A stretch of DNA of 14,634 nucleotides from contig NW_021825785.1 of assembly GCF_006345805.1 (NCBI RefSeq), forward strand, positions 1 through 14,634, given 5' to 3'. Position numbers and translations under genes: made by a program. Positions 1 through 14,029 of the stretch are shown in pieces. Below the pieces are notes generated by a model, which searched no databases, was not told the DNA's origin, and worked only from the letters and a program-made list of their open reading frames with translations. Source of the DNA: Octopus sinensis (Eukaryota). The stretch's first letter is position 1. Every line of letters starts with the position of its first letter.

Positions 1-173
1 CTACCATACTCACATATATATAGTTATATATATGCGCATATCGCACATGGAATTAAGAAGCGGGCATTTTAAACTGGTCATGTTGCATACGTGCATATAT
101 ATGTATGTATACGTTCGTATATGTAAGTAGTCGTATGTTGTATGTTTATGTATTTATGTTTCTCTCTGCGCAT

Positions 174-232
174 ATTCCACTGATGAGGCAAAGCATTTCT
201 AAATGCAAAGACAGAAATCCGGGATCTGGAAT
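174..232 (+). ncRNA. Type I hammerhead ribozyme-like motif (family A, copy 1)
   Basis: Stem I ATTCCA(174-179)/TGGAAT(227-232); core CTGATGA 180-186; stem II region GGC-AAA-[GCATT-TCTA-AATGC]-AAA-GAC-A; GAAA 214-217; minimal stem III ATC-CGG-GAT; predicted cleavage after AUC (C226). Base of stem II is imperfect. Confidence 0.75.
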
Positions 233-466
233 TATCCAGTAATTTTTTACTAGTTTTATTTTGTCGTTTTGTCTTCTCTCCTTGTGCTATATGAACACTT
301 AATGTGGTTTTAGAGTCAGATCCTGGCTGCTATTTTCAGCATGGCGGTATCTCGTAGATACCCTAATTTATAATTTTAATAATAATCATTACTTTTGAAT
401 GTTTTTATTTCCATGCTGGCCACTTGATAAGATCGTTATTTAATTTAAATTAACGATCTTATCCTT
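174..466 (+). mobile_element. Non-coding hammerhead-bearing repeat, family A copy 1 (Penelope pLTR/retrozyme-like)
   Basis: Colinear motifs and helices shared with 3590-3875; ends in a 13-bp hairpin next to (TA)n. The 5' boundary is uncertain. Confidence 0.6.
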
Positions 467-469: not shown

Positions 470-533
<64 letters not shown>

Positions 534-628: not shown

Positions 629-995
629 GGCGCAGGACTGGTTTTGTCGTATCTTGCTTAACGACCAGGGTTCAGTCCCACTGCGTGACATCTTACGTAG
701 GCGTCTTCTACTATAGCCTCGGGCCGACCAAAGCCTTGTGAGTGGATTTGGTGGACGGAAACTAAAAGAAGCCTGTCATATATATATTTATATATGTGTG
801 TGTGTGTCTGTTTGTCCCCCTACCATCGCTTGACAACCAATATTGGTGTGTTTACGCCCCCGTAATTTAGCGGTTCGGAAAAGCGGAATGATAGGATAAG
901 TACTAGGCTTACAAAGAATAAGTCCTGGGGTTGATTTGTTCGACTAAAAGCAGTGCACCAGCATGGCCGCAGTTAAGTGGCTGAAATAAAAGAAT
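629..995 (+). mobile_element. tRNA-derived SINE with internal (TA)/(TG) tract and LINE-derived 3' tail
   Basis: Starts GGCGCAGG; decayed A box; B-box-like GGTTCAGTCCC 669-679; internal microsatellite about 779-807; 950-986 matches the LINE 3' end (5509-5545, -) at 28/37 nt; A-rich end. Confidence 0.85.
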
Positions 996-1390: not shown

Positions 1391-2679
1391 TATATGTATG
1401 TATGTATAGTTCTCCCTTCAAACGTATCCAATCTCCAGAAAATTAGGTGCCATTATTTATGATACACGTGTTTGCATGAATGATTCGCTTCAGTATCTGC
1501 TCGGCTTTGCCACAACATTTTTAGAAGCTAAAAAGTAACAAAGAACAAAAATGTAAACAAATCTAAAAAGAATATACAGTGTCTATTGTCTTATTAATGT
1601 TTACCAAGGAAAAAGGAATAAAGATTGGACAGTCTTTCCTTTCTTTTCAAACTGTTGCTTATTATTATTATTTTCATTTTTATTATTGTTAATGTTATCA
1701 CTATTATTATAAGTTCTTCTTCTCATTATTATTATTATTATTGGCAAGTTATTCCCATATTAAGTACCGGCCCTAACTTTGTTTGACATGTCACATGCGA
1801 GGAGAGCTAAGGGTTTGAGGGAAATTTTTGTAATCAGTAACTCGTAAAATGAAATCCCTCACTCTCTCTCTCACACACATACATACACACATACACCTTA
1901 ATACACAAATATATAGCTATACATTCTTTTTTAGATATTTCTGGTTAAATATAGTATAGTATGAAAAGCCAAAAATAAAGAAATATTACTGAAATAATAG
2001 ATATAAATAGGAAAATTTTATTCAGAAATTGCATGTTGATAGCAAAAAGAAAACCATGAGAACAAACCACAGCATTAATCGTTGATTCCTCTGTTGAACA
2101 ATTTATGTCAGCTTTGCCAATCTAGCAGAAACGTTGCCAGGAAGAACATCCAACCAATATCTGAAGTGGAAACTACTCCACCTAACAAAGCTTAGTGCCA
2201 GGCGCGACACCCTAATCCAGACCTAGGAGGAACGCCTTATCCGGGAACCGACTGTTTCGGAGGTTTCAACAGCGATGGGAAATAATGTTATATTAGCTGT
2301 GAGTGAAGAAGAGCAACTTACAGCTGCGAGAGGAAATTGAAAGTATCGAGGCTGCTTTTAATGGTGTCCTTCAGAGTTGAGTGGGAAGGTGTTCATTTCG
2401 ACAAAGAAGAGCGTGGATGCTGTTCTAAGTCTTTGCTAGTAGATTCACGATAGCATTTATGTGGCTGACGGACGCGGAGACCGAATAACAAGGTAACTCC
2501 GATGTGTGTGTACTACTAGTCGAGAAGCTCCGCACGGCGAACAGGGTCCCGTGTCCATCCAGGTCCTACTGTTTTGTTGCAATGCAGTTTCTTGACAGGA
2601 GAAGTGGTGTTATTTGGTGGAAGACTGAATCGTCATCTTGGCGGAAGTATACTGAAAAAATTGACCCATCGCATTGATT

Positions 2680-3450
2680 GGGCATGTCTAAGAGGTCTAT
2701 TATGAACAGTAATGGCCCCAGAACAGTTCCCTGGGGGACGCCACTTAGGAATTCAGTTTCCTCAGAAAGGGCACCATTGGTTGTAACTACCTGACATCTG
2801 TCTTTGAGGAAATCATGTAGCCACTCTCCCAGTTTACCAACAATGCCTAGTTCTCGTAGCTTATGACTTATCATGCCATGATCTACCTTATCAATTGCTT
2901 TTGCAAAGTCAAGATATATCACGACGACTTCCGAATGGTCAAGCAGCTGTTTCAAAACCCAGTCATAATGCTGTAGGAACTGTGTGAGGCAGTTTTTACC
3001 GGGACGGAAGCCTTGATGTGTATTGTTCAGCGGGTCATTTTCTTCTAGGAATATTATCAGCTTCTTTCTGATGATTCGCTCCATGACTTTACTGATATGC
3101 GAAGTCATAGAGATGAGTCTGTAGTTTTTGGCCTCTAATCTGCTTCCACCTTTGTAGATCGGGCATATAATGCTTTCTTTCAGCTTTTTTGAAAGTCTAC
3201 CACTTGCAAGGAAACTTTGGAAAAGTATCTGAAGTAGTTTCGCTAAAGCCTGCTTACATGACTTTAGGAGAATAGCTGGGAAGTCATGAGGAGCAGTTGC
3301 GGAGCATGAACTCATTTCATCAATGACCACTGATACATCTGTCTCCTCAATTTTAATTTAATCGACGATTGGGTCTTCCTTTTTTAGAGCTGCAATATCG
3401 AAAAATTCAACCGGATTTTTTTATTTGCATGTATCCAAGGCGGGAAGTGA
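2680..3450 (-). mobile_element. CR1-group LINE reverse transcriptase fragment (N-terminal RT motifs; stops before YADD)
   Basis: ORF 2566..3330 has PIYKGG, NYRLISMTS..SKVME, QGFRPG, YLDFAKAIDKVDH, SGVPQGTVLGPLLF; homology ends at DMP (2680-2688). Its N-terminal part aligns with 6485-6700 of the larger LINE. Confidence 0.92.
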
Positions 3451-3875
3451 AGATACTTACTCACGTGTCTTGAATGGGCTGGAGTGTTTCTATTTTGGAT
3501 GTATTTGGGGTACTTAATTGTGCTTATGACTTAGTGTTTGCTTCTTCCATGGGTATGAGTAAGTATCTCATTTATTTCTTTTACCACATTTATCACTGAC
3601 GCAGGGAGGGCTCTTATGAGCTAACCCTGAAATCGGTCCGATGTAGTAATAATGGAATTTTTTAGAAATTTCTGTCGACTTTTTTCGAGTAGCATGCATA
3701 GTGTGAAAAAATTATATGGTTAATGGACAATATGTCCAATTTTTCGGCATATTTGGCATTAGGAATTTTTTCGTTTGCCCTTATTTATGAGTTATATAAA
3801 TTTAACATTTAAAGGAATTTTTAACATGCTGGCCATTGATGAAATTTTTTTTGAAAAAGAAAAAAATTTAATCCT
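3451..3875 (+). mobile_element. Non-coding hammerhead-bearing repeat, family A copy 2
   Basis: Same order and spacing of motifs as 174-466 (core CTGA to CATGCTGGCCA: 229 vs 232 nt); terminal hairpin then (TA)n. Confidence 0.6.
3590..3649 (+). ncRNA. Degenerate type I hammerhead ribozyme-like motif (family A, copy 2)
   Basis: Stem I TTATCA/TAGTAA (1 mismatch); core CTGACGC 3596-3602 (variant of CUGANGA); stem II AGGG-AG-[GGCTC-TTAT-GAGCT]-AA-CCCT; GAAA 3629-3632; palindromic stem III ATCGG-T-CCGAT; position 17 is G3643, so probably inactive. Confidence 0.65.
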
Positions 3876-3981: not shown

Positions 3982-4077
3982 AATAAGAAATGCTGAGGTC
4001 GATCCATTGCACTGAAATTCTTGAAGGCGGTGCTCAGCTCGGGCGTAGTCTAATGAGTGAAATATATAAAAGATAAA
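3982..4077 (+). mobile_element. 5'-truncated, diverged SINE 3' tail (same tail family as 629-995)
   Basis: AATAAG..CTGAGGTCGAT..ACTGAAA..AAGGCGGTGCTCAGC..GG.CGTAGTCTAATGAGTGAAA aligns with 917-990. Confidence 0.7.
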
Positions 4078-5480: not shown

Positions 5481-5572
5481 ACCTATTTTATTTTATTTTT
5501 TTATATAGTTTCAGCTCACGAGCTGTGGCCATGCTGGGGCACCGCCATTTGCTGTTGCCACATGATTTTACT

Positions 5573-7945
5573 TCACGAATGCTTTTTAGCAACTGCCATT
5601 TGGTGCATGAGAGAGTTCGATGCAGCAGCCCTCATCTGCACCTCCTGCGGTGAAGTTGGTTCATCCGAGACACCTGACAGGATGAGATCCAGTCCTACTT
5701 TAAAGACATCCACATCCACCCTATGCAAGTCCCTCATGTTCTTCTGGAGGATATTGAAGAGCTGTGGGCCTCTGAAGCCCAGGCTATCACAGTATCTTGT
5801 CCTACATATTGATGGCAAATTTGGAGTCCTTGGCACCACGCAGTGGCGCCCAGTTCTGGCATTTGTGTAACTCTCGATGCCAAAGTTTGGGACAAGTCCT
5901 TCCAGGATCTTCCAGATGTATATTATGGCATATCTCTCTCGCCTACGCTCCAAGCTCTTGAGTCTTTCCCAGTTGCTTATATGCTATCTTCGTGTAGCTT
6001 CGTTGGATCGCCTCAAGTTCTGTGATCAACTTGACACTGGATGGTGACCATAGCCGAGAGCAATAGTCAAAGTGGCTTAGGACAAGTGTCCTCCAGAGGA
6101 CCATCATGTTTTCTTGTTCTCTTGTTCTAAAGGTTCTAAGAATCCATCCAGCCAGCCGTCTACATTTCATTGTCAGTTTAGCAACATGTACATGAAAGGT
6201 CGCGTCATCACTCATGTGAATACCCAGGTCACGCACTGATTGTGCCTCTGGGATTGCAATCCCTCCGGGTCCAGTGTATTCCTTGGGTATTGCATTCAGT
6301 TTTGCATGCTGATAGTATAAAGCTTGAAACTTTTCAGCATTGAACTGCATGCTATTCTTTTCAGCCCACTTGTATACTTTGTCCAGCTCACATTGCAGGT
6401 GCATAGTGTCTTCAGGGTTCTGTATTACATGTGAGACTTTTGTATCATCCGCATAACTTGTGATCGTGGCTCTCTGCGTGACTTTAGTGGTCTTGCTAGG
6501 AATCTTTTACATACTTTTAGAAGGATTGCCGGGAATCCATCGGGGCCAGTAGCTGAGTTTGTTTTCATTTCATCTATAGCCTTTATTACATCGTCTTCCT
6601 TTATATTGATGTAATCAATCATCGCCGCCTCTGATTTTATATCTGCAGTGGTAAAGAAGTCAGTTGGATTGCTGATTTGGAAATGCCCTAGGGGTGGAGT
6701 GAAAACACTCTTGAATTGCTCATTCAGTATTTCACTTACCATCATTGGATTTCCTGTGAGTGTGCCATCCTTTTCAAGAGTGGCCCTATCCTGCAGTGCA
6801 CCGTAGCTGTTTCTTTGGCATACCTGCAGAAAGCTCTGGGGTTAGATTTTATGTTGTCTATAGCCCAGGCTTCTTTGTCTGCTCTTTCCTTTTCATGGGA
6901 GAGTTGCAGACATTTTTCAATTTCCAACAGTTTTATTTTCAGGCGGGACTTTTCACTGCTTTCAATTTGTTTGTTTAGGCGATTTGAAATTTTTGTACGC
7001 CGTCTCATTAGAATTTTCCTCTCTCTGGGGATTTTGTTCTTGTGTACAGTGGCCTTTCTCTCTGGGACACATTTGTAGCATATGGCTTGCATTACAGACA
7101 TGAATTGTTGAAGTTTCACGTCGATGTCTGGTGAGGAGAGACATTCAGGCCAGTTTTGTTTGAGGATCTCTTAATTTGTTTCCAGTTTGCCTTATGGATG
7201 TTCAAGCTGGAAAGATTCTGAGAGTTTCTTGTAGGCTGCATGTCCATGCTTTCCTTTGGCCCGTACATGGTCAGCTCTACCATGTTGTGATCCGAGAGTA
7301 GTGTCGGTGTCACTTTCACATTATGTATGAGATCCATATTATTTGTGAAGCAGAGATCCAGTGTGTTACCTGCCCTGGTTGGTTGGAGTATTACTTGCTC
7401 CATGTACAGGGTGTTGATGAGGTTCAGGAGGGACCTCGCCTGTCCTCGTTCACATCGTGTCATTCCTGGGAGAGAAAGGCCTCGGGCCATCTGACATTGG
7501 GTAGATTGAAGTCTCCCATAAGAAGTACACTTATGTGTTGTTCTAATGTGACTAGAACTTCTTCTATTTTTATAAGGCAGTCTTCAAACTTGCCTACATG
7601 GCTTGGGGCATCTGGAGGGTGATATGTAGCACACACAACTACACCAAGCTGCCTTAGATGTACAATTAGTGTGTCACACACCGAGTTTGAGTATGACAAA
7701 AAAAACTGGAGTGTGAGGTCCTCACGGATGTACATAGCAACTCCTCCATGACTCCTTTCTTTTCTGTCGGTCCGTAGTACAACATACTGTGGTATGTGTA
7801 ATTCCGCATCTACTATGTCCGGTTTCAAGTGTGTTTCCGTAAGTGCTATGCATAAGGCTTGATTGCATGCAACAAAGTCTCCCAAGAACGGGATTTGTGT
7901 CCTGTTACTGAGTGTTAGTAGTCCTCTGATGTTCAGTAGGAGCAT
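5573..7945 (-). pseudogene. LINE ORF2 (APE endonuclease + reverse transcriptase), frameshifted and deleted
   Basis: APE motifs NIRGL, LTETHL, GGVAMY, YHPP, GDFNLP, TLDLCF, SDHNMV across ORFs 7460..8029 and 7116..7490; RT pieces in 6425..6745, 5943..6404 and 5573..5953. Confidence 0.92.
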
Positions 7946-8445
7946 CGAGGTGAGGTGTATGCTGTTGCTGGTGGTGTCCACCTTGGGTCTATTTGCTGTG
8001 GTGGTCTTGTGTATTGTGGATAGTCCCACCTGCGAGCTTGAGTTTGATGGAGCCAGGTTAGCTGCTGTACAATCTTTTGTGCCATGCCCAAAAAAGATTC
8101 TTGTCCAGCAGCTGCCCTTTCAACAACATGTTGGCGGTTTGTGGCACGCACCACATCTGCGTACCTCCGTTTTGGGGCAGGCGGTGCGTGGTCCATCCCT
8201 TTTCCTTTTGGTAGTTGGTTTCTGACCTGTTTCGTGTCTCTGCGGCAGGGTCCCCGATGTGCAAAACGGCAGCCTGCACCTTCCTCTCAATGCCAGCAGG
8301 CACCTCTCAGGTAGAACCTACACACCCGTGTGCGCTGTCTGTTTCCATCCTTTTTGGTATATGGATAGTCAGGTTTGCTTCTATCCTTGGCTGTTTCATT
8401 TTTTGGTTTTGTTTGAGTTTTAGTTTTAGTTTTTCCTCCTTTTAT
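7933..8445 (-). pseudogene. LINE ORF1 remnant with CCCH-type zinc finger
   Basis: Manual translation in the frame of ORF 7933..8196: VCRFYLRGACWH*EEGAGCRFAH (C-x7-C-x8-C-x3-H, 8322-8257); the frame ends overlapping the putative ORF2 ATG at 7945. Confidence 0.7.
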
Positions 8446-10260
8446 TTATTTTTTGGCTCTTTCATCTCCATGGCTTTTGGTGCTGGTAGGAGCACTTGCC
8501 CTTGGGTTTACTTCCCGGGCAGGTTTCTCCCTTGAATCTTCTTCCTGTGTGTCTACCAGTTGGGGGTGACTTCTTTCATCAGCACCCGCGTCTCCATCCT
8601 TGCCATCTTTACTTTGTTGGTTGTCAAAGATGGCATCAAGCGTGCCAATATGAGATCTTATAAGTGCATAAGAGCGTATAAACTCCTGCTTCTTCCGCTC
8701 TATCTGAGCTATCGTCCTTTTATATCCACTGCTCTTCAGCGCAGCTGTAATTATGTTGTTCGGATTATCTCCGTCGGCGAATTGTCAGGCTCTTACGAAC
8801 GACGCCAATTCGTCACGTCTCCAGGTTCTGGACATGTTGGATATTTTATTTATTTATCTATCTAATTATATTTAAAATTTAATAGTGTGATAGAGGGTAG
8901 AGAAGAAATACAGAAAGAAAGTGACTGTGTATTTAGAGAGATTGAGAGCTGAGAGAAGATAAGAAGAGAGTAAGAGAGGAAAGTTCGCGACTATATATTT
9001 AGAAAAATTGAGACGCTGAAAGAGGAAAGATTGTGTGACAGAAGTGAGTTAATGAACTTATGTAGACACGCAACCAAATTTAAAATGTCAAATATAAATA
9101 CACCATATGGATAGAGTATATATTTTGTATTTTTGATTTTTAAAATTTTGATTTTGACTCTTGGACTAGTATGTAAACGCGACGATGGATTTGTTTCGCG
9201 CTATGCAGATTTCATTCCGTATAGCAAAGTCTCATGCATATATTTTGTTTATTTTGTTTATATTTCTACATATACATTAGGAAAAACCTTCGGATTTGTT
9301 TATTTCATGTTATTGTATTGTATAGGTATAACTTGATTTTTAATTTATAGATGATCCAAAATAGGGTGTTATATTTTATATGTCTTTCGTATATTTTTCA
9401 TTATTGCACTCACCTTTTTTTAAAAAGCAATTTTGTCAAAAATTAGAATATTGATGTAAATATGTGTATAGCCATGGATATGTATTTGTAAGCATGCGTC
9501 CCTGTGTATGTGTAAGTGAGCGTATGTTTGTGCTTAAGCACACACATACACGACTGTATGTGTATGTATCCATTCGAACTTATGTATTTGTGTACTTGTC
9601 TCCATATATGTCAATAACGTGGTTACACAGCTTGTATACATAATTTTTCTTATTTCGTTTTTTCCCCCACCCCTCCTTTTTCTTTTTTCCTTCCCCTTCT
9701 TCGTTCCTTTTTTCTCTCTCTTCCTTTCTTTCGTTTTTTTCTCTAACTGATACTGGTACATACAACTTTACGTCCCCCTTACTTAAGCTGTACTCCGTAA
9801 ATAAGAAACGCTACATTAGCATCGATGATTTTAACTTGCGTGCGAGATAGATTGCGTACATATATGTATGCATGCATTTGTGTGTATATTTTATATTTAT
9901 ATTTATACGTCTGTATATGTATGGCGTTTGCACGCATCCTTCTGTGTATGTTGATATATATATGTACACTTTAATATGAATATGTATTGCAGTGTAATAT
10001 TTATAATGCTTTTAATTTCCATGCATCAATTATATTTCCTTCATTAATGTCAATATGTATTTTATTCAATGTCAGGTTTTTTTCCTCGAATTTTATAATT
10101 TTTATAATTTTTATATATATACATATATTTTTGAGCTCATTTTTTTGTTTATCGCTCGAAGATTGACCGTTATTTCTAAAGGGCCAATCAAACAAGTCCA
10201 TTTTTTAAAGGTGTAGCGTTTGTAAGAGTCTGGATTGAATTGATATATCGGTTCCATTCT

Positions 10261-10314
10261 AGCAAAAACTATCTGATGAACGGCAACGAGAAACTCAGAG
10301 TAACAGATTTTGTT
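10261..10314 (+). ncRNA. Minimal type I hammerhead ribozyme-like motif (family B, copy 1)
   Basis: Stem I AGCAAAAACTAT/ACAGATTTTGTT (10 of 12 pairs); CTGATGA 10273-10279; stem II A-CG-GCAA-CG-A; GAAA 10290-10293; palindromic stem III ACTC-A-GAGT; predicted cleavage after GUA (A10302). Confidence 0.8.
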
Positions 10315-10410
10315 GAATTTTCTGCTGCTTTAAATAAAGCATATTACTCTACCACTGGTATTTGAGTACTCTTTTTTCCACCTTGTTTCACATTTATGTG
10401 TTTACTCCGG
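10261..10410 (+). mobile_element. Hammerhead-bearing short repeat, family B copy 1
   Basis: Similar to the reverse complement of 12157-12234 through ..GCTTTAAATAAAGCATA; ends at (TA)n. The 5' boundary is uncertain. Confidence 0.65.
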
Positions 10411-10575
10411 TATATGTATATATATGTAGACATACATTAATATATATATACTTATATATATATAGACATACATTTTATATATATATGTCTATGTAGGCGT
10501 ACATTAATATATATATATATATACATACTTATATATATAAAGACATACATTATATATATATATATATATATATTA
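10411..10575. repeat. (TA)n field with AGACATACATT units
   Basis: Directly visible; units start at 10428, 10464, 10495 and 10541. Confidence 0.93.
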
Positions 10576-10881
10576 TTTATGCGCCCTTTTCAAGCCTAAC
10601 CAGGCTTATGGGCCCGGTTTCCGGGTTTTTATGGCGTATGTGTTCCCCCCAGCTGGACGGGACGCCAGTCCATCGCAGCGTTACTCAAGAAACAGGAAGA
10701 AAGAGTGAGAGAAATTTGGGACGCAAGAGTACAGCATAGGTTGTCACCACCCCCTGCCAGAGCCTCGTAGAGCCTTACGTGTTTTCGCTCAATAAACAGG
10801 CACAACGCCCTGTCTGGGAATCGAAACCGCAATCCTTCTACCGCGAGTCCGCTGCCCTAACCACTGGGCCATTGCGCCTCC
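10576..10881 (-). mobile_element. tRNA-derived SINE (second family)
   Basis: Minus strand starts GGAGGCGCAA; A box TGGCCCAGTGG (10871-10861); B box GTTTCGATTCC (10827-10817); about 300 nt, ending in ATAAATAATA and (TA)n. Confidence 0.88.
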
Positions 10882-10909
10882 ACACACACACACACGCACA
10901 CATATAAGA

Positions 10910-10954
<45 letters not shown>

Positions 10955-11000
10955 ACACACACACACATACACATATTAACGTGTATGTGTGTGTGTGTTT
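10882..11000. repeat. (CA)n/(GA)n/(TG)n microsatellites
   Basis: Directly visible. Confidence 0.95.
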
Positions 11001-11295
11001 CATTCCACATGTATTACACACGCAAATAATAGTTTCACCTACACGACAAGTACGTTCATCGGGCGCTGATTATTTTATGAAACTAAGACGTTTGAATAGG
11101 AAACCGTGCGAGAGGTGATGATTCTAAAGCAAACCATATTTAATGGAAGATTCCTCTAAATATGGGTTGCTTTAGAATTACTTCTCGCACGGTTTCCTAT
11201 TTAAACTTCTTGGTTTCATAAAATAATCAGCGCCCGATGGACGTACTTGTCATGTGGGTGAAACTATTAGTTGCGTGTGTAATACACGTGGAGTG
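11001..11295. mobile_element. Foldback palindrome / probable MITE
   Basis: Arms 11001-11148 and 11151-11295 are reverse complements with about 14 substitutions and one 3-nt indel; 2-nt spacer; TA directly outside the right end (TT on the left). Confidence 0.85.
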
Positions 11296-11403
11296 TATTA
11301 ATACATTAATATTGGACTTTCATGAGATGGAGTATTCTTTTTGTTGAATATTGCACACAGATCACTTTGCTATATATATACGTACATACATACATACATA
11401 CAC

Positions 11404-11998
11404 ACAAAGGAATACTGGTGGAAAATACCACTGAAAACTTCAATAAAATGTAAGCACAACAGGCCTTATATAATGATTTGGGTTAAAGAAGAGAAACTGC
11501 ACAGTTGTGGAAACCAGCTGCCCATTGGATGTCAACATAAAGCTGAAGATCAGTGAAAAAGAGAACACCTATGCTGAACTATTGAGAAATCTGCAGTTAC
11601 TCTAACCAGATTACAAGTTCAGATTTACACCTGTAATTATCGGGGCCCTGGGATATGTAACACGCTGCCTAAATACCAATCTTGAGAAATTAGGCTTCTC
11701 AAAACCAGAAAAGAGAAAGTTAATTCGAAGACTACAGATCCAATCCATCACTGGAACTGTAAAAATCAGTAAAACTTTCCAGAAGTTTATCATTTAAATA
11801 TATATGAGCGTGTTTAGATATGTAACTATATGCATGAGAATACATACATAAAACATACAAATCTGCACATACATACATACAAACAAAAATATCCTGTTGC
11901 TGATGTTGAAATTCCAATGAAGGAAGTTTAGGTTAGGAATCTAGGTTAGAAACCAGTTCTTTCGCTATTGGCAAGAAATCTTGAAATAAACTGAATGA
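11404..11998 (+). mobile_element. 5'-truncated RLE-type (R4/Dong-like) non-LTR retrotransposon 3' end
   Basis: Translation across one frameshift (about 11500) and one stop (11603-11605): EYWWKIPLKTSIKCKHNRPYIMIW..TVVETSCPLDVNIKLKISEKENTYAELL..PVIIGALG..FII* (stop ends 11797), the RPD..E..K..Y layout of a restriction-like endonuclease; then about 200 nt of 3' UTR. Confidence 0.85.
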
Positions 11999-12000
11999 CG

Positions 12001-12013
12001 CACGCACACACAC

Positions 12014-12048
<35 letters not shown>

Positions 12049-12124
12049 TAAAAATATATATACTATACATATATATATGTATGTATAGTATAGTATATAT
12101 ATATATATACAAATATATATACAA

Positions 12125-12156
<32 letters not shown>
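12001..12156. repeat. (CA)/(TACA)/(TA)/(TG) microsatellites
   Basis: Directly visible. Confidence 0.95.
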
Positions 12157-12192
12157 AGGTATACTTTTATTAAAGCTGCTAAATTATCACAA

Positions 12193-12234
12193 AACTGTTA
12201 CTCATAGTTTCACGTTCCCTCTCGTTGGACAGTT
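12193..12234 (-). ncRNA. Degenerate minimal type I hammerhead-like motif (family B, copy 2)
   Basis: Minus strand reads AACTGT-CCAACGA-GAGGGAACGT-GAAA-CTATGAG-TA-ACAGTT: perfect 6-bp stem I and spacing identical to 10261-10314, but the core is mutated (CCAACGA). Confidence 0.7.
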
Positions 12235-12344
12235 GAGACAAATACATATCACAACTGAGTATATATATATATATATATACATGTGTGTGTATTATGTATG
12301 TATTATATACACATATATGTATGTATGTGTGTGTGTGTGCGTGC

Positions 12345-13490
12345 ATCAATCCAAAGAAGGCCCCTACCCTTCTACGTTAGGACAGAATACAGAATAGACA
12401 CCATTTTCTTTGAGATGTAGTCTCCTCCCTACATGTTTGTACCAGATATCCCAACAATCAACCTTTTAGTCGGCCACCTTCTCCGGTACCACCAGCATCA
12501 CCTCCTCTTCCACCACCTCTCTTTTGCTCTCACCCCCTCAAAAATGTTCCTCTGCCTAAGTATCACATTCGTCCAGTCTAATGGCATTCTTTTCAAACAG
12601 ATCCCAGTCCTGCCGTTGTGCCTTTGCCTTTCAATCCTTCTGGTCAACATCAGTATGGACCTAATTCTGTCTTCCCCTCGAGAGGCAGCTGCCAACTACA
12701 TATAAATTCATCAATGTTGCGGGTCACATTACTTTTGAGGCCGAACATCAAGACGACCCTCAATCCCTCGCTCTAATTAATTACCAACTCAAGATTACAG
12801 AAGAGGGATTCATCTATACAAACTTCTGCTTGTGAGAGGCCTGCAAGGGACACATTTATGCTCTACAAAATGGCGCTTCCTACCAGAGTCACATAGACCT
12901 ACGACCAAAACAAAATTTACCTGATACGCAATAGGTTGCAGAGAGGTAGTAATATAGCTGCTAATACGAAAGGACTTCAAAAGTTTTTACAAACATCGAT
13001 TTTTACCATTTTTACTGAACACCGGAAAGCTATTATGGATGGGTGAGATACCCACGTTTTCAAAGATGATATTTATATTCTGAGACGATCATTTTAATGA
13101 TAGAGCCGCTGCTGCAATCCACAGAGAGGTACCGAATACACAGATGATACCGAGTTCTTTCTGACTCGAAATCGACCAAAGAACAGCAACAAGTCAGACA
13201 CACTGACCTATTGTACTAACAACAATATATATAGTCTTGCGTTGAAGAGCCCACATAATGTACCAAATTGTCCGCAGTAAATGTGGTGATTGATTTGTAG
13301 GAGCCACCGACCAAAAGCTGTAATATCCTGATCCAGGAACACGAGTAATATATGAGGATTTCAATCAATAGACGTCCAAAGGAATGCTACAATTCAGAAT
13401 TTAGAGTTACCATTAATACAGCGGAATGCAACATCGGTAATTTCAGGATCAAACTAAACCTTTACATTAATTAACTAAGACCATCTATTA
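12345..13490 (+). mobile_element. Heavily degraded Penelope-like element (RT + GIY-YIG endonuclease)
   Basis: Manual translation: PFSL/DVVS (12401-12425, RT motif A); FKQIPVLPL..SILLVNISMD (motif B-like); HITFEAEH..SLALINYQLKI; DTFMLYKMALP; IMYQIVRSKCGD*FVGAT (13255-13308) then IQEH; FRIKLNLYIN*LRPSI (to 13489). The order matches PLE ORFs. Confidence 0.78.
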
Positions 13491-13709
13491 GAAACAGACA
13501 ATGGGCTGATTGTTTAGTGTAGCAAAAACCATTCTGCACGTGTCACATTCCCAACAGCTTCCCATACAATTGAGCAAAATATACCAATCAACCACTTCCG
13601 TATTATACTCCATTTTTGTTTTTTTCGATGAAGGGCTATTAATCCCAATATTTCGAAGTGAAAAGTATGAGGAAATACGTTGTTCTGTCTTCTTTGCTTC
13701 CATTTTCAT
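13490..13709 (-). mobile_element. Possible hAT-like transposase N-terminal remnant
   Basis: KKTEQRISSYFS..SKKTK followed by DW(L)YF..WECDTC..F, resembling the W..CxxC..F start of a TTF-type zinc finger; weak and frameshifted. Confidence 0.3.
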
Positions 13710-13759
13710 TCCTATATTTCAATTTGCATTGAATTGGTTTTCTAACTATCAATTTAAGC

Positions 13760-14029
13760 CTTATCTATCTATCTCCATCCATCCATCCATAAGTAAGTAA
13801 GTAACTATCTATTTATCTCTACATACAAAATATATTTTACACATATACACATATGTATGTACACATACATACATATATATAGATAGATACATACATATAT
13901 ATATATTTATATATAGATATATGTATGCATAAGTAACTTAATGTATGTGTATTTACATATATGTAGATACATGCATGCGTATCTATCTATTTGTATATCT
14001 ATCTATACATACACACACGTGTATGTATT

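What the first reader, a model, noticed from the sequence alone, without database searches (positions are those of the whole stretch)
174..232. Family A hammerhead with extended bulged stem II, heading a non-coding element of about 290 nt
Seen: intact CUGAUGA/GAAA/AUC core, 6-bp stem I and a tiny stem III. Stem II has a purine-rich internal loop capped by a 5-bp hairpin, an architecture repeated with different sequence at 3590-3649. Both copies can be read with one extra unpaired base before GAAA. Established: minimal type I hammerheads occur in Penelope-like element pLTRs and non-autonomous retrozymes. Inference: a ribozyme-processed non-autonomous retroelement family that inserts at (TA)n.
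Basis: partly seen in the sequence, partly recalled or inferred. Interest (0 to 1): 0.78.

Follow-up and report, generated by a model that had tools for sequence, protein, structure and literature searches.

The report
Octopus mini-repeat with Penelope-type hammerhead
This is one slightly damaged copy of a very abundant 310-base non-coding repeat in an octopus-like genome that begins with a self-cutting hammerhead RNA motif of the type carried by Hydra-group Penelope-like jumping genes; it is a real but modest variant of a known kind, and cutting has not been shown.

Summary
The motif is real. A strict type I hammerhead descriptor finds only this site in the window; with its perfect palindromic stem III it appeared in 0 of 300 shuffles. 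It heads a ~308-nt element (158-465) homologous end to end to a second copy, 3575-3875 (z=10). Public contigs of three organisms show a very high-copy family (roughly 10^4 by depth) ending at (TA)n. The mismatch at the base of stem II (A211) is private to this copy; >99% of depth reads C or T, both pairing. The core and the unpaired A before GAAA are invariant, and variation falls in loops. The 4+1+4 palindromic stem III, extra base before GAAA and (TA)n target match hammerheads of Hydra-clade Penelope-like elements (PMC8557442; 16 and 15 of 25 families), which occur in Octopus. Best reading: a non-autonomous Hydra-type PLE derivative whose ribozyme works, if at all, as a dimer. Distinctive: internal-loop stem II, one-sided extra A, conserved 3' hairpin. 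Not shown: cleavage, circles, tandem arrays, the parent element. Copy B's core has two departures from consensus.

The parts
158..465 (+). Element A: non-coding, 33% GC repeat unit headed by the hammerhead
   Evidence: Aligns with element B from 159 to 465, 195 of 284 aligned columns identical, z=10, 0 of 200 shuffles; folds at z=-4.21, 0 of 100 shuffles; covered throughout by contigs of 4 of 4 runs laid
174..232 (+). Type I hammerhead motif, Hydra-PLE type
   Evidence: Sole strict descriptor hit; architecture compared with File S2 of PMC8557442
180..186 (+). 5' core CUGAUGA
   Evidence: only N7 (184) and an A put in behind 185 (3-7% of depth) vary
187..212 (+). Stem II: 3-bp base, 3x3 purine internal loop, 5-bp cap with 4-nt loop; A211 is a private mismatch of this copy
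   Evidence: C or T at 211 in 94,081 of 94,235 depth in X1, likewise in the other 3 runs; with C the base pairs reach probability 0.99 or more, with U only 0.23
213..217 (+). Unpaired A213 followed by core GAAA
   Evidence: No substitution or deletion listed at 213-217 in any of 4 runs (tables 3 and 4; 40 of 52 substitution rows shown)
217..226 (+). Stem III, a 4+1+4 palindrome, and predicted cleavage site after C226
   Evidence: Self-duplex -9.9 kcal/mol, no monomer hairpin; the only listed variant is the central G221A
426..463 (+). 3'-terminal 13-bp hairpin
   Evidence: 13 of 13 pairs; B has a hairpin at the same place with different sequence
470..500 (.). (TA)15 microsatellite after the 3' end, probable target
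   Evidence: loose ends behind 443 run into TA or CA repeats in 4 of 4 runs
3575..3875 (+). Element B: diverged sister family, hammerhead 3590-3649 with 5+1+5 palindrome and two core departures; (AT)n from 3883
   Evidence: of 17 hand-matched stem pairs 8 same, 6 changed on both sides, 1 on one side, 2 broken

Best explanation
A high-copy non-autonomous retroelement derived from the hammerhead-bearing 3' end of a Hydra-clade (or Hydra-like) Penelope-like element in an octopod. SHOWN: motif, family, conservation pattern, (TA)n at the 3' end. INFERRED: copies are transcribed by read-through. The weak stem III keeps single RNAs largely inactive; two RNAs pair through the 9-nt palindrome (or are helped by PLE protein) and cut after C226. 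A PLE RT/GIY-YIG protein supplied in trans nicks (TA)n and primes reverse transcription at the 3' end next to the terminal hairpin, mostly on uncut RNA, since copies keep the whole hammerhead. This window's copy is a decayed offspring with a weakened stem II.
For:: 3381, 313, 2060 and 1838 contigs laid; peak summed depth over typical single-contig depth is about 9,500-14,000 in three runs (rough; the tool warns depth is no copy number). Variable sites inside 174-232: 5 of 13 unconstrained versus 2 of 46 constrained positions (Fisher p=0.004; sites are inherited, not independent). A versus B: 6 of 17 pairs changed on both sides; 16 of 25 Hydra families have a 4+1+4 stem III; 15 of 25 have an unpairable extra base before GAAA; 26 of 27 listed Hydra families prefer (TA)n; Hydra-1_Obim exists in Octopus bimaculoides. 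Host is octopod-like: among named hits of a neighbouring LINE RT, the highest identities are Octopus sinensis 70% and Argonauta hians 61%. 7 of 15 listed joints join opposite strands, as in PLE inverted insertions. The listed upstream loose ends (place 147, runs X1 and X2) are (TA)n, and A and B homology starts at the same point, about 15 nt before stem I. Uncut RNA is the main substrate for an anole PLE in vitro and its hammerhead is protein-assisted (PMC11167929 passages).
Against: No parent found: four of six family motifs had 0 matches in the PMC8557442 supplement and the other two matched unrelated elements; the Hydra-1_Obim 3' end differs by eye and stops about 37 nt after its hammerhead. 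Hammerhead-to-end distance (about 310 nt) is longer than in most Hydra consensi (about 90-210, my subtraction). In all 15 Hydra cases the extra 3' base faces an extra 5' U; family A lacks that in over 90% of depth, and a one-sided insertion beside G12 could impair catalysis (inference). G228A breaks a stem I pair in 11-30% of depth, with no compensating change listed. The commoner base at 211 (U) gives a poorly populated fold (0.14-0.31). Only 24 of 625 loose ends were shown, so longer copies could be hidden. Joints at 80% likeness may come from other repeats.
Confidence: 0.6

Rival explanations
1. The copies are simply 5'-truncated tails (solo pLTR-like ends) of an autonomous Hydra-type PLE whose full-length copies are rare or lost; there is no independent non-autonomous family.
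For: Most PLE hammerheads occur as single motifs related to truncated PLEs (PMC4209133). Depth falls steadily towards the 5' end (50,319 at 184, 17,669 at 171, 7,406 at 161 in X1). Earlier scan notes reached this verdict for similar elements in other genomes (unchecked leads).
Against: No non-microsatellite upstream extension among the 24 best-supported loose ends; only 1-4% of laid contigs run on into unlike sequence. Two families at 69% identity begin their homology at the same place.
Confidence: 0.2
2. A classical animal non-LTR retrozyme: tandem source arrays make abundant circular RNAs by double cleavage, and the window copies are solo offspring.
For: Size (150-450 bp) and low GC fit (PMC7229834); solo monomers are common in retrozyme families (bioRxiv 2026.07.22.740005); stable fold.
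Against: Both window copies are single and start before the hammerhead rather than at the cut; no end-to-start joint among 15 listed of 20. A. millepora retrozymes carry canonical hammerheads with tertiary contacts. A (TA)n spacer would break contigs, so arrays are not excluded.
Confidence: 0.12
3. The hammerhead is a fossil: a once-active PLE end became a SINE-like passenger, now catalytically dead, and the conserved structure serves only protein recognition or reflects a few master copies.
For: One-sided A213; uncompensated G228A; B's core is altered at two positions; PLE hammerheads are weak in vitro and dispensable for insertion.
Against: Core positions are invariant while neighbouring loop positions vary; stems covary between A and B.
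Confidence: 0.08

Closest known systems
Hammerheads of Hydra-clade Penelope-like elements (Craig et al. 2021, PMC8557442; e.g. Hydra-1_Obim, Penelope-3_HM)
   Same: Type I, near the 3' end; 4+1+4 palindromic stem III (16 of 25 families); extra base before GAAA (15 of 25); (TA)n target; present in Octopus.
   Different: No ORF here. Stem II is tabulated without an internal loop in 25 of 25 families (two have self-pairing loops that give a similarly long helix, by eye). The extra 3' base always faces an extra 5' U there. No sequence match to the Octopus consensus.
Minimal PLE hammerheads (Cervera and de la Pena 2014, PMC4209133)
   Same: Dispersed, heterogeneous, high-copy type I motifs; palindromic helix III; dimer mechanism; 1 of the 56 core entries in Fig. 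S3 reads AGAAA (species not assignable from the PDF text).
   Different: Those typically lack helix III and carry the extra base between A9 and G10.1; here it lies between C11.1 and G12.
Animal non-LTR retrozymes (PMC7229834; bioRxiv 10.64898/2026.07.22.740005)
   Same: Non-coding, about 300 bp, low GC, type I hammerhead, proposed PLE derivatives.
   Different: Defined by tandem units and circular RNAs, neither seen here.
CChMVd(-) viroid hammerhead (PMC2632901)
   Same: Domain II with an internal loop capped by a hairpin; that loop is presumed to make the tertiary contact.
   Different: A viroid hammerhead whose domain I is closed by a hairpin loop, with an asymmetric 2:6 loop; a structural analogy only.

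Membership tests
Type I hammerhead ribozyme | Core CUGANGA, GAAA, UH | tested here: met
   invariant across the family among rows listed
Type I hammerhead ribozyme | Stems I, II, III around the core, open end at stem I | tested here: met
   stem II base broken in this copy, intact in the family; stem III stable only as an intermolecular duplex
Type I hammerhead ribozyme | Stem II closes directly on G12 (no base between 11.1 and 12) | tested here: not met
   A213 unpaired; precedents with two-sided extra bases
Type I hammerhead ribozyme | Match to an Rfam hammerhead model | tested here: not met
Type I hammerhead ribozyme | Self-cleavage | not testable with these tools
   Needs an assay; only contigs were available
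Hydra-clade PLE | ORF with Hydra-type RT and C-terminal GIY-YIG | tested here: not met
   No ORF of 80 aa or more with such content in or beside the element; so not an autonomous member
Hydra-clade PLE | Hammerhead with short palindromic stem III near the 3' end | tested here: met
   One search compared
Hydra-clade PLE | Insertion into (TA)n | tested here: met
   3' side in 2 of 2 window copies and in loose ends; 5' side degenerate for A, absent for B; empty sites not examined
Hydra-clade PLE | Sequence homology with the 3' end of an autonomous family | tested here: inconclusive
   Exact-motif searches negative; one Octopus consensus differs by eye; no genome held
Hydra-clade PLE | Partial tandems, inverted 5'-truncated pieces, 30-40-bp tail | tested here: inconclusive
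   7 of 15 listed joints join opposite strands, each seen in one contig per run; tail not examined
Non-LTR retrozyme | Head-to-tail tandem units each with a hammerhead | tested here: inconclusive
   Absent in the window; not among listed joints; arrays elsewhere not excluded
Non-LTR retrozyme | Abundant circular RNA | not testable with these tools
   No run on record as RNA; no raw reads

The most novel reading that the evidence does not exclude
An octopod-wide superfamily of about 310-nt structured RNA parasites of Hydra-type PLEs, at roughly ten thousand copies, with an active hammerhead variant that tolerates a one-sided insertion next to the general base G12 and uses a purine internal loop in stem II as its tertiary dock, plus a covarying 3' hairpin that is the recognition signal for the PLE reverse transcriptase. 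This would give a compact natural template to test what PLE hammerheads do and how PLE proteins pick RNA in trans.
Probability: 0.2. Interest if true: 0.62.

Novelty: new variant of a known kind. Interest (0 to 1): 0.4.

Why it matters
The role of hammerheads in Penelope-like elements is open: they are weak in vitro and dispensable for insertion in the one reconstituted system read here. A non-coding family that amplified massively yet kept the core and covarying stems suggests selection on the RNA structure in the source copies, and offers a short testable substrate. The one-sided base before GAAA and the internal-loop stem II also escape Rfam, so such motifs are undercounted. Against that, PLE-derived hammerhead repeats are widespread and published, so this extends a known kind.

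Tried and rejected
No whole genome was held, so copy boundaries, arrays and a parent could not be examined directly. Rfam: no hammerhead. Pattern scans for the family: 0 loci in viral contigs, prokaryote genomes and metagenomes. A looser pattern gave 22 viral loci, of which 0 of 22 had both stems: chance. No RNA holder on record; run X8 is only guessed to be RNA and holds contigs, so it says nothing on expression or cutting. The lower depth over the 5' half of the hammerhead was considered as a sign of copies starting at the cut and rejected: the step lies at 200-212, not 227, and equally deep dips occur at 257 and 398-407. An apparent likeness of B to the 3' end of a PLE-like remnant (13510-13770) was not significant (z 0.5 for B, -1.7 for A). 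That remnant got 0 Pfam families in 3 of 3 frames and no protein hit among 143 candidates. Element C is not homologous to A or B. How far the LINE piece reaches towards B's 5' end was not resolved. Literature: no description of this family in searches for hammerhead ribozyme + octopus (5 papers), hammerhead + Penelope + octopus, retrozyme + cephalopod, Hydra + Penelope-like + hammerhead + nonautonomous, Octopus + Penelope + non-autonomous + repeat + SINE; a search on an extra nucleotide at G12 gave 0. Lunse et al. 2017 (about small PLE hammerhead variants) was not held and may include such motifs; Repbase and Dfam could not be searched; the supplements of the 2026 preprint were not seen. Earlier scan notes: none for this genome or sequence.

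Full report
1. Observation. The window is AT-rich, microsatellite-rich animal DNA with broken LINE pieces. The highest identities among named hits of the LINE RT at 2566-3357 are Octopus sinensis (70%) and Argonauta hians (61%), so the host is most likely an octopod (120 of 1136 hits listed, most unnamed). At 174-232 the sequence gives a type I hammerhead: 6-bp stem I, CUGAUGA, stem II (3-bp base, 3x3 A loop, 5-bp cap), an unpaired A213, GAAA, a 9-nt palindrome 217-225, and C226. It is the only strict descriptor hit; 8 of 300 shuffles give one, 0 of 300 when the palindrome is required. Rfam does not recognise it. On its own the 59-mer does not favour the hammerhead fold.

2. The family. 20 of 24 listed runs, from 10 studies and 4 coded organisms, hold part of 165-468. 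I laid 4 of them (organisms A, A, B, D) at 80% likeness: 3381, 313, 2060 and 1838 contigs. Peak depth over the median depth of the 8 listed contigs per run is about 14,000, 9,500 and 9,700 in the three larger runs, and about 900-1,300 at position 184 (rough, not a copy number). Position 211 reads C or T in over 99% of depth in all four runs, so the G188-A211 mismatch is private and the family keeps the pair. No substitution at 6% or more is listed for core positions or A213 (40 of 52 rows shown, best supported kept), and no deletion of A213 is listed. Variation inside the motif falls on N7, the cap loop (198, 201), the internal loop (208) and the palindrome centre (221): 5 of 13 unconstrained against 2 of 46 constrained sites (p=0.004; sites are inherited along lineages). 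Against this, G228A breaks a stem I pair in 11-30% of depth; copy B has a C-A mismatch at the same pair.

3. The element. A (159-465) and B (3575-3875) align end to end (195 of 284 columns, z=10; hammerhead part z=4.9, 3' part z=5.9), and both end in ATCCT a few bases before (TA)n. Of 17 hand-matched stem pairs, 6 change on both sides, 1 on one side, 8 are the same and 2 are broken. B has C at position 9 and G at 17 and is probably dead. A folds at z=-4.21 (0 of 100 shuffles), B at z=-2.32 (3 of 100). Both end in a hairpin of different sequence. In the family T436 is mostly A (83% in X1), and the loose-end consensus of three runs has the complementary change on the other arm but also a new mismatch opposite G431 (read by eye, not phased). 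Listed upstream loose ends are (TA)n. 7 of 15 listed joints join opposite strands; none runs from end to start; no common start or end of molecules is listed.

4. Mechanism. Stem III does not form in a monomer (probability at most 0.01) but pairs with itself at -9.9 kcal/mol, the arrangement for which dimer cleavage is described (PMC4209133; PMC6765202). I infer a non-autonomous element copied by a PLE RT/endonuclease into (TA)n, mostly from uncut RNA, with slow dimer- or protein-dependent cutting after C226. My odds: real PLE-type hammerhead repeat 0.85; Hydra-type origin 0.65; non-autonomous rather than truncated tails 0.6-0.7; majority sequence cleaves in some format 0.55; this copy cleaves 0.3. 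No step of cutting, circularisation or mobilisation is shown.

5. Comparison. File S2 of PMC8557442 lists hammerheads for 25 Hydra families (26 rows, one duplicate, my counts): 16 have a 4+1+4 stem III and 15 have an unpairable base before GAAA, always opposite an extra U after CUGANGA. 26 of 27 families in File S1 list (TA)n preference, including Hydra-1_Obim. What remains distinctive is the internal-loop stem II (a known analogy exists in CChMVd(-)), the extra A without a 5' partner (an A is put in there in only 3-7% of depth), the lack of an ORF and the abundance. No parent was found. It works like a Hydra-PLE end; it is not shown to be a member of a named family, nor a retrozyme in the tandem and circle sense.

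6. What I read. PMC4209133: parts 1-2 of 4 and supplement parts 1-2 of 3. PMC8557442: passages, section 11, supplement searches and parts 2 and 52 of 59. PMC7229834: passages and part 2 of 6. bioRxiv 2026.07.22.740005: parts 1-2 of 5. Passages only: PMC11167929, PMC6765202, PMC2632901, PMC6962438 (235 Rfam hammerhead-1 hits in giant squid), PMC6155905, PMC7936874, PMC8967140, PMC10886601. Lunse et al. 2017: not seen. Hammerhead position numbering and the SINE label for 626-992 are from my own knowledge.

7. Verdict. A real, selected-looking RNA motif in a very abundant repeat; a new variant of a known kind; interest 0.4.

Noticed in passing
window 10267-10410 (+): A third hammerhead-headed short element, not homologous to A or B: core at 10273, short GCAA-capped stem II with an extra A on each side, 4+1+4 palindrome identical to that listed for Penelope-3_HM, 3' half nearly identical to Hydra-2_Amil; (TA)n from 10411. 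Stem I is decayed (4 of 6).
   Followed up: partly
window 12700-13770 (+): By eye a heavily broken PLE-like RT C-terminus and GIY-YIG remnant followed by a decayed minimal hammerhead at about 13626-13655; not confirmed by Pfam or protein search.
   Followed up: partly
window 5510-5545 (-) and 950-990 (+): The 3' end of the long broken LINE (APE + RT, 5573-8119 minus) resembles the 3' end of the SINE-like repeat at 806-992 (no shuffle control): a likely LINE-SINE partner pair; a further worn SINE tail at about 3985-4075.
   Followed up: partly
window 11001-11295: Long inverted repeat, 119-nt arms at 91% with 57 nt between: MITE-like or fold-back element.
   Followed up: no
window 11410-12000 (+): Broken C-terminal piece resembling a restriction-like-endonuclease non-LTR element (resemblance recalled; 0 Pfam families in 3 frames); its 3' UTR has a GAAA-led near-palindrome at about 11945-11962 after a hairpin, faintly hammerhead-like but without the CUGANGA box.
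   Followed up: no
loose ends, run X8, place 288: Three contigs have (TA)n plus a short leader just before 288, suggesting shorter copies that hold only the 3' 180 nt of the element and lack the hammerhead.
   Followed up: no
window 236-253, 308-329, 337-418: Further hairpins in element A; listed variants there mostly fall in loops or keep G-U pairs (A249G, G354T, C322T, C323A, by eye).
   Followed up: partly
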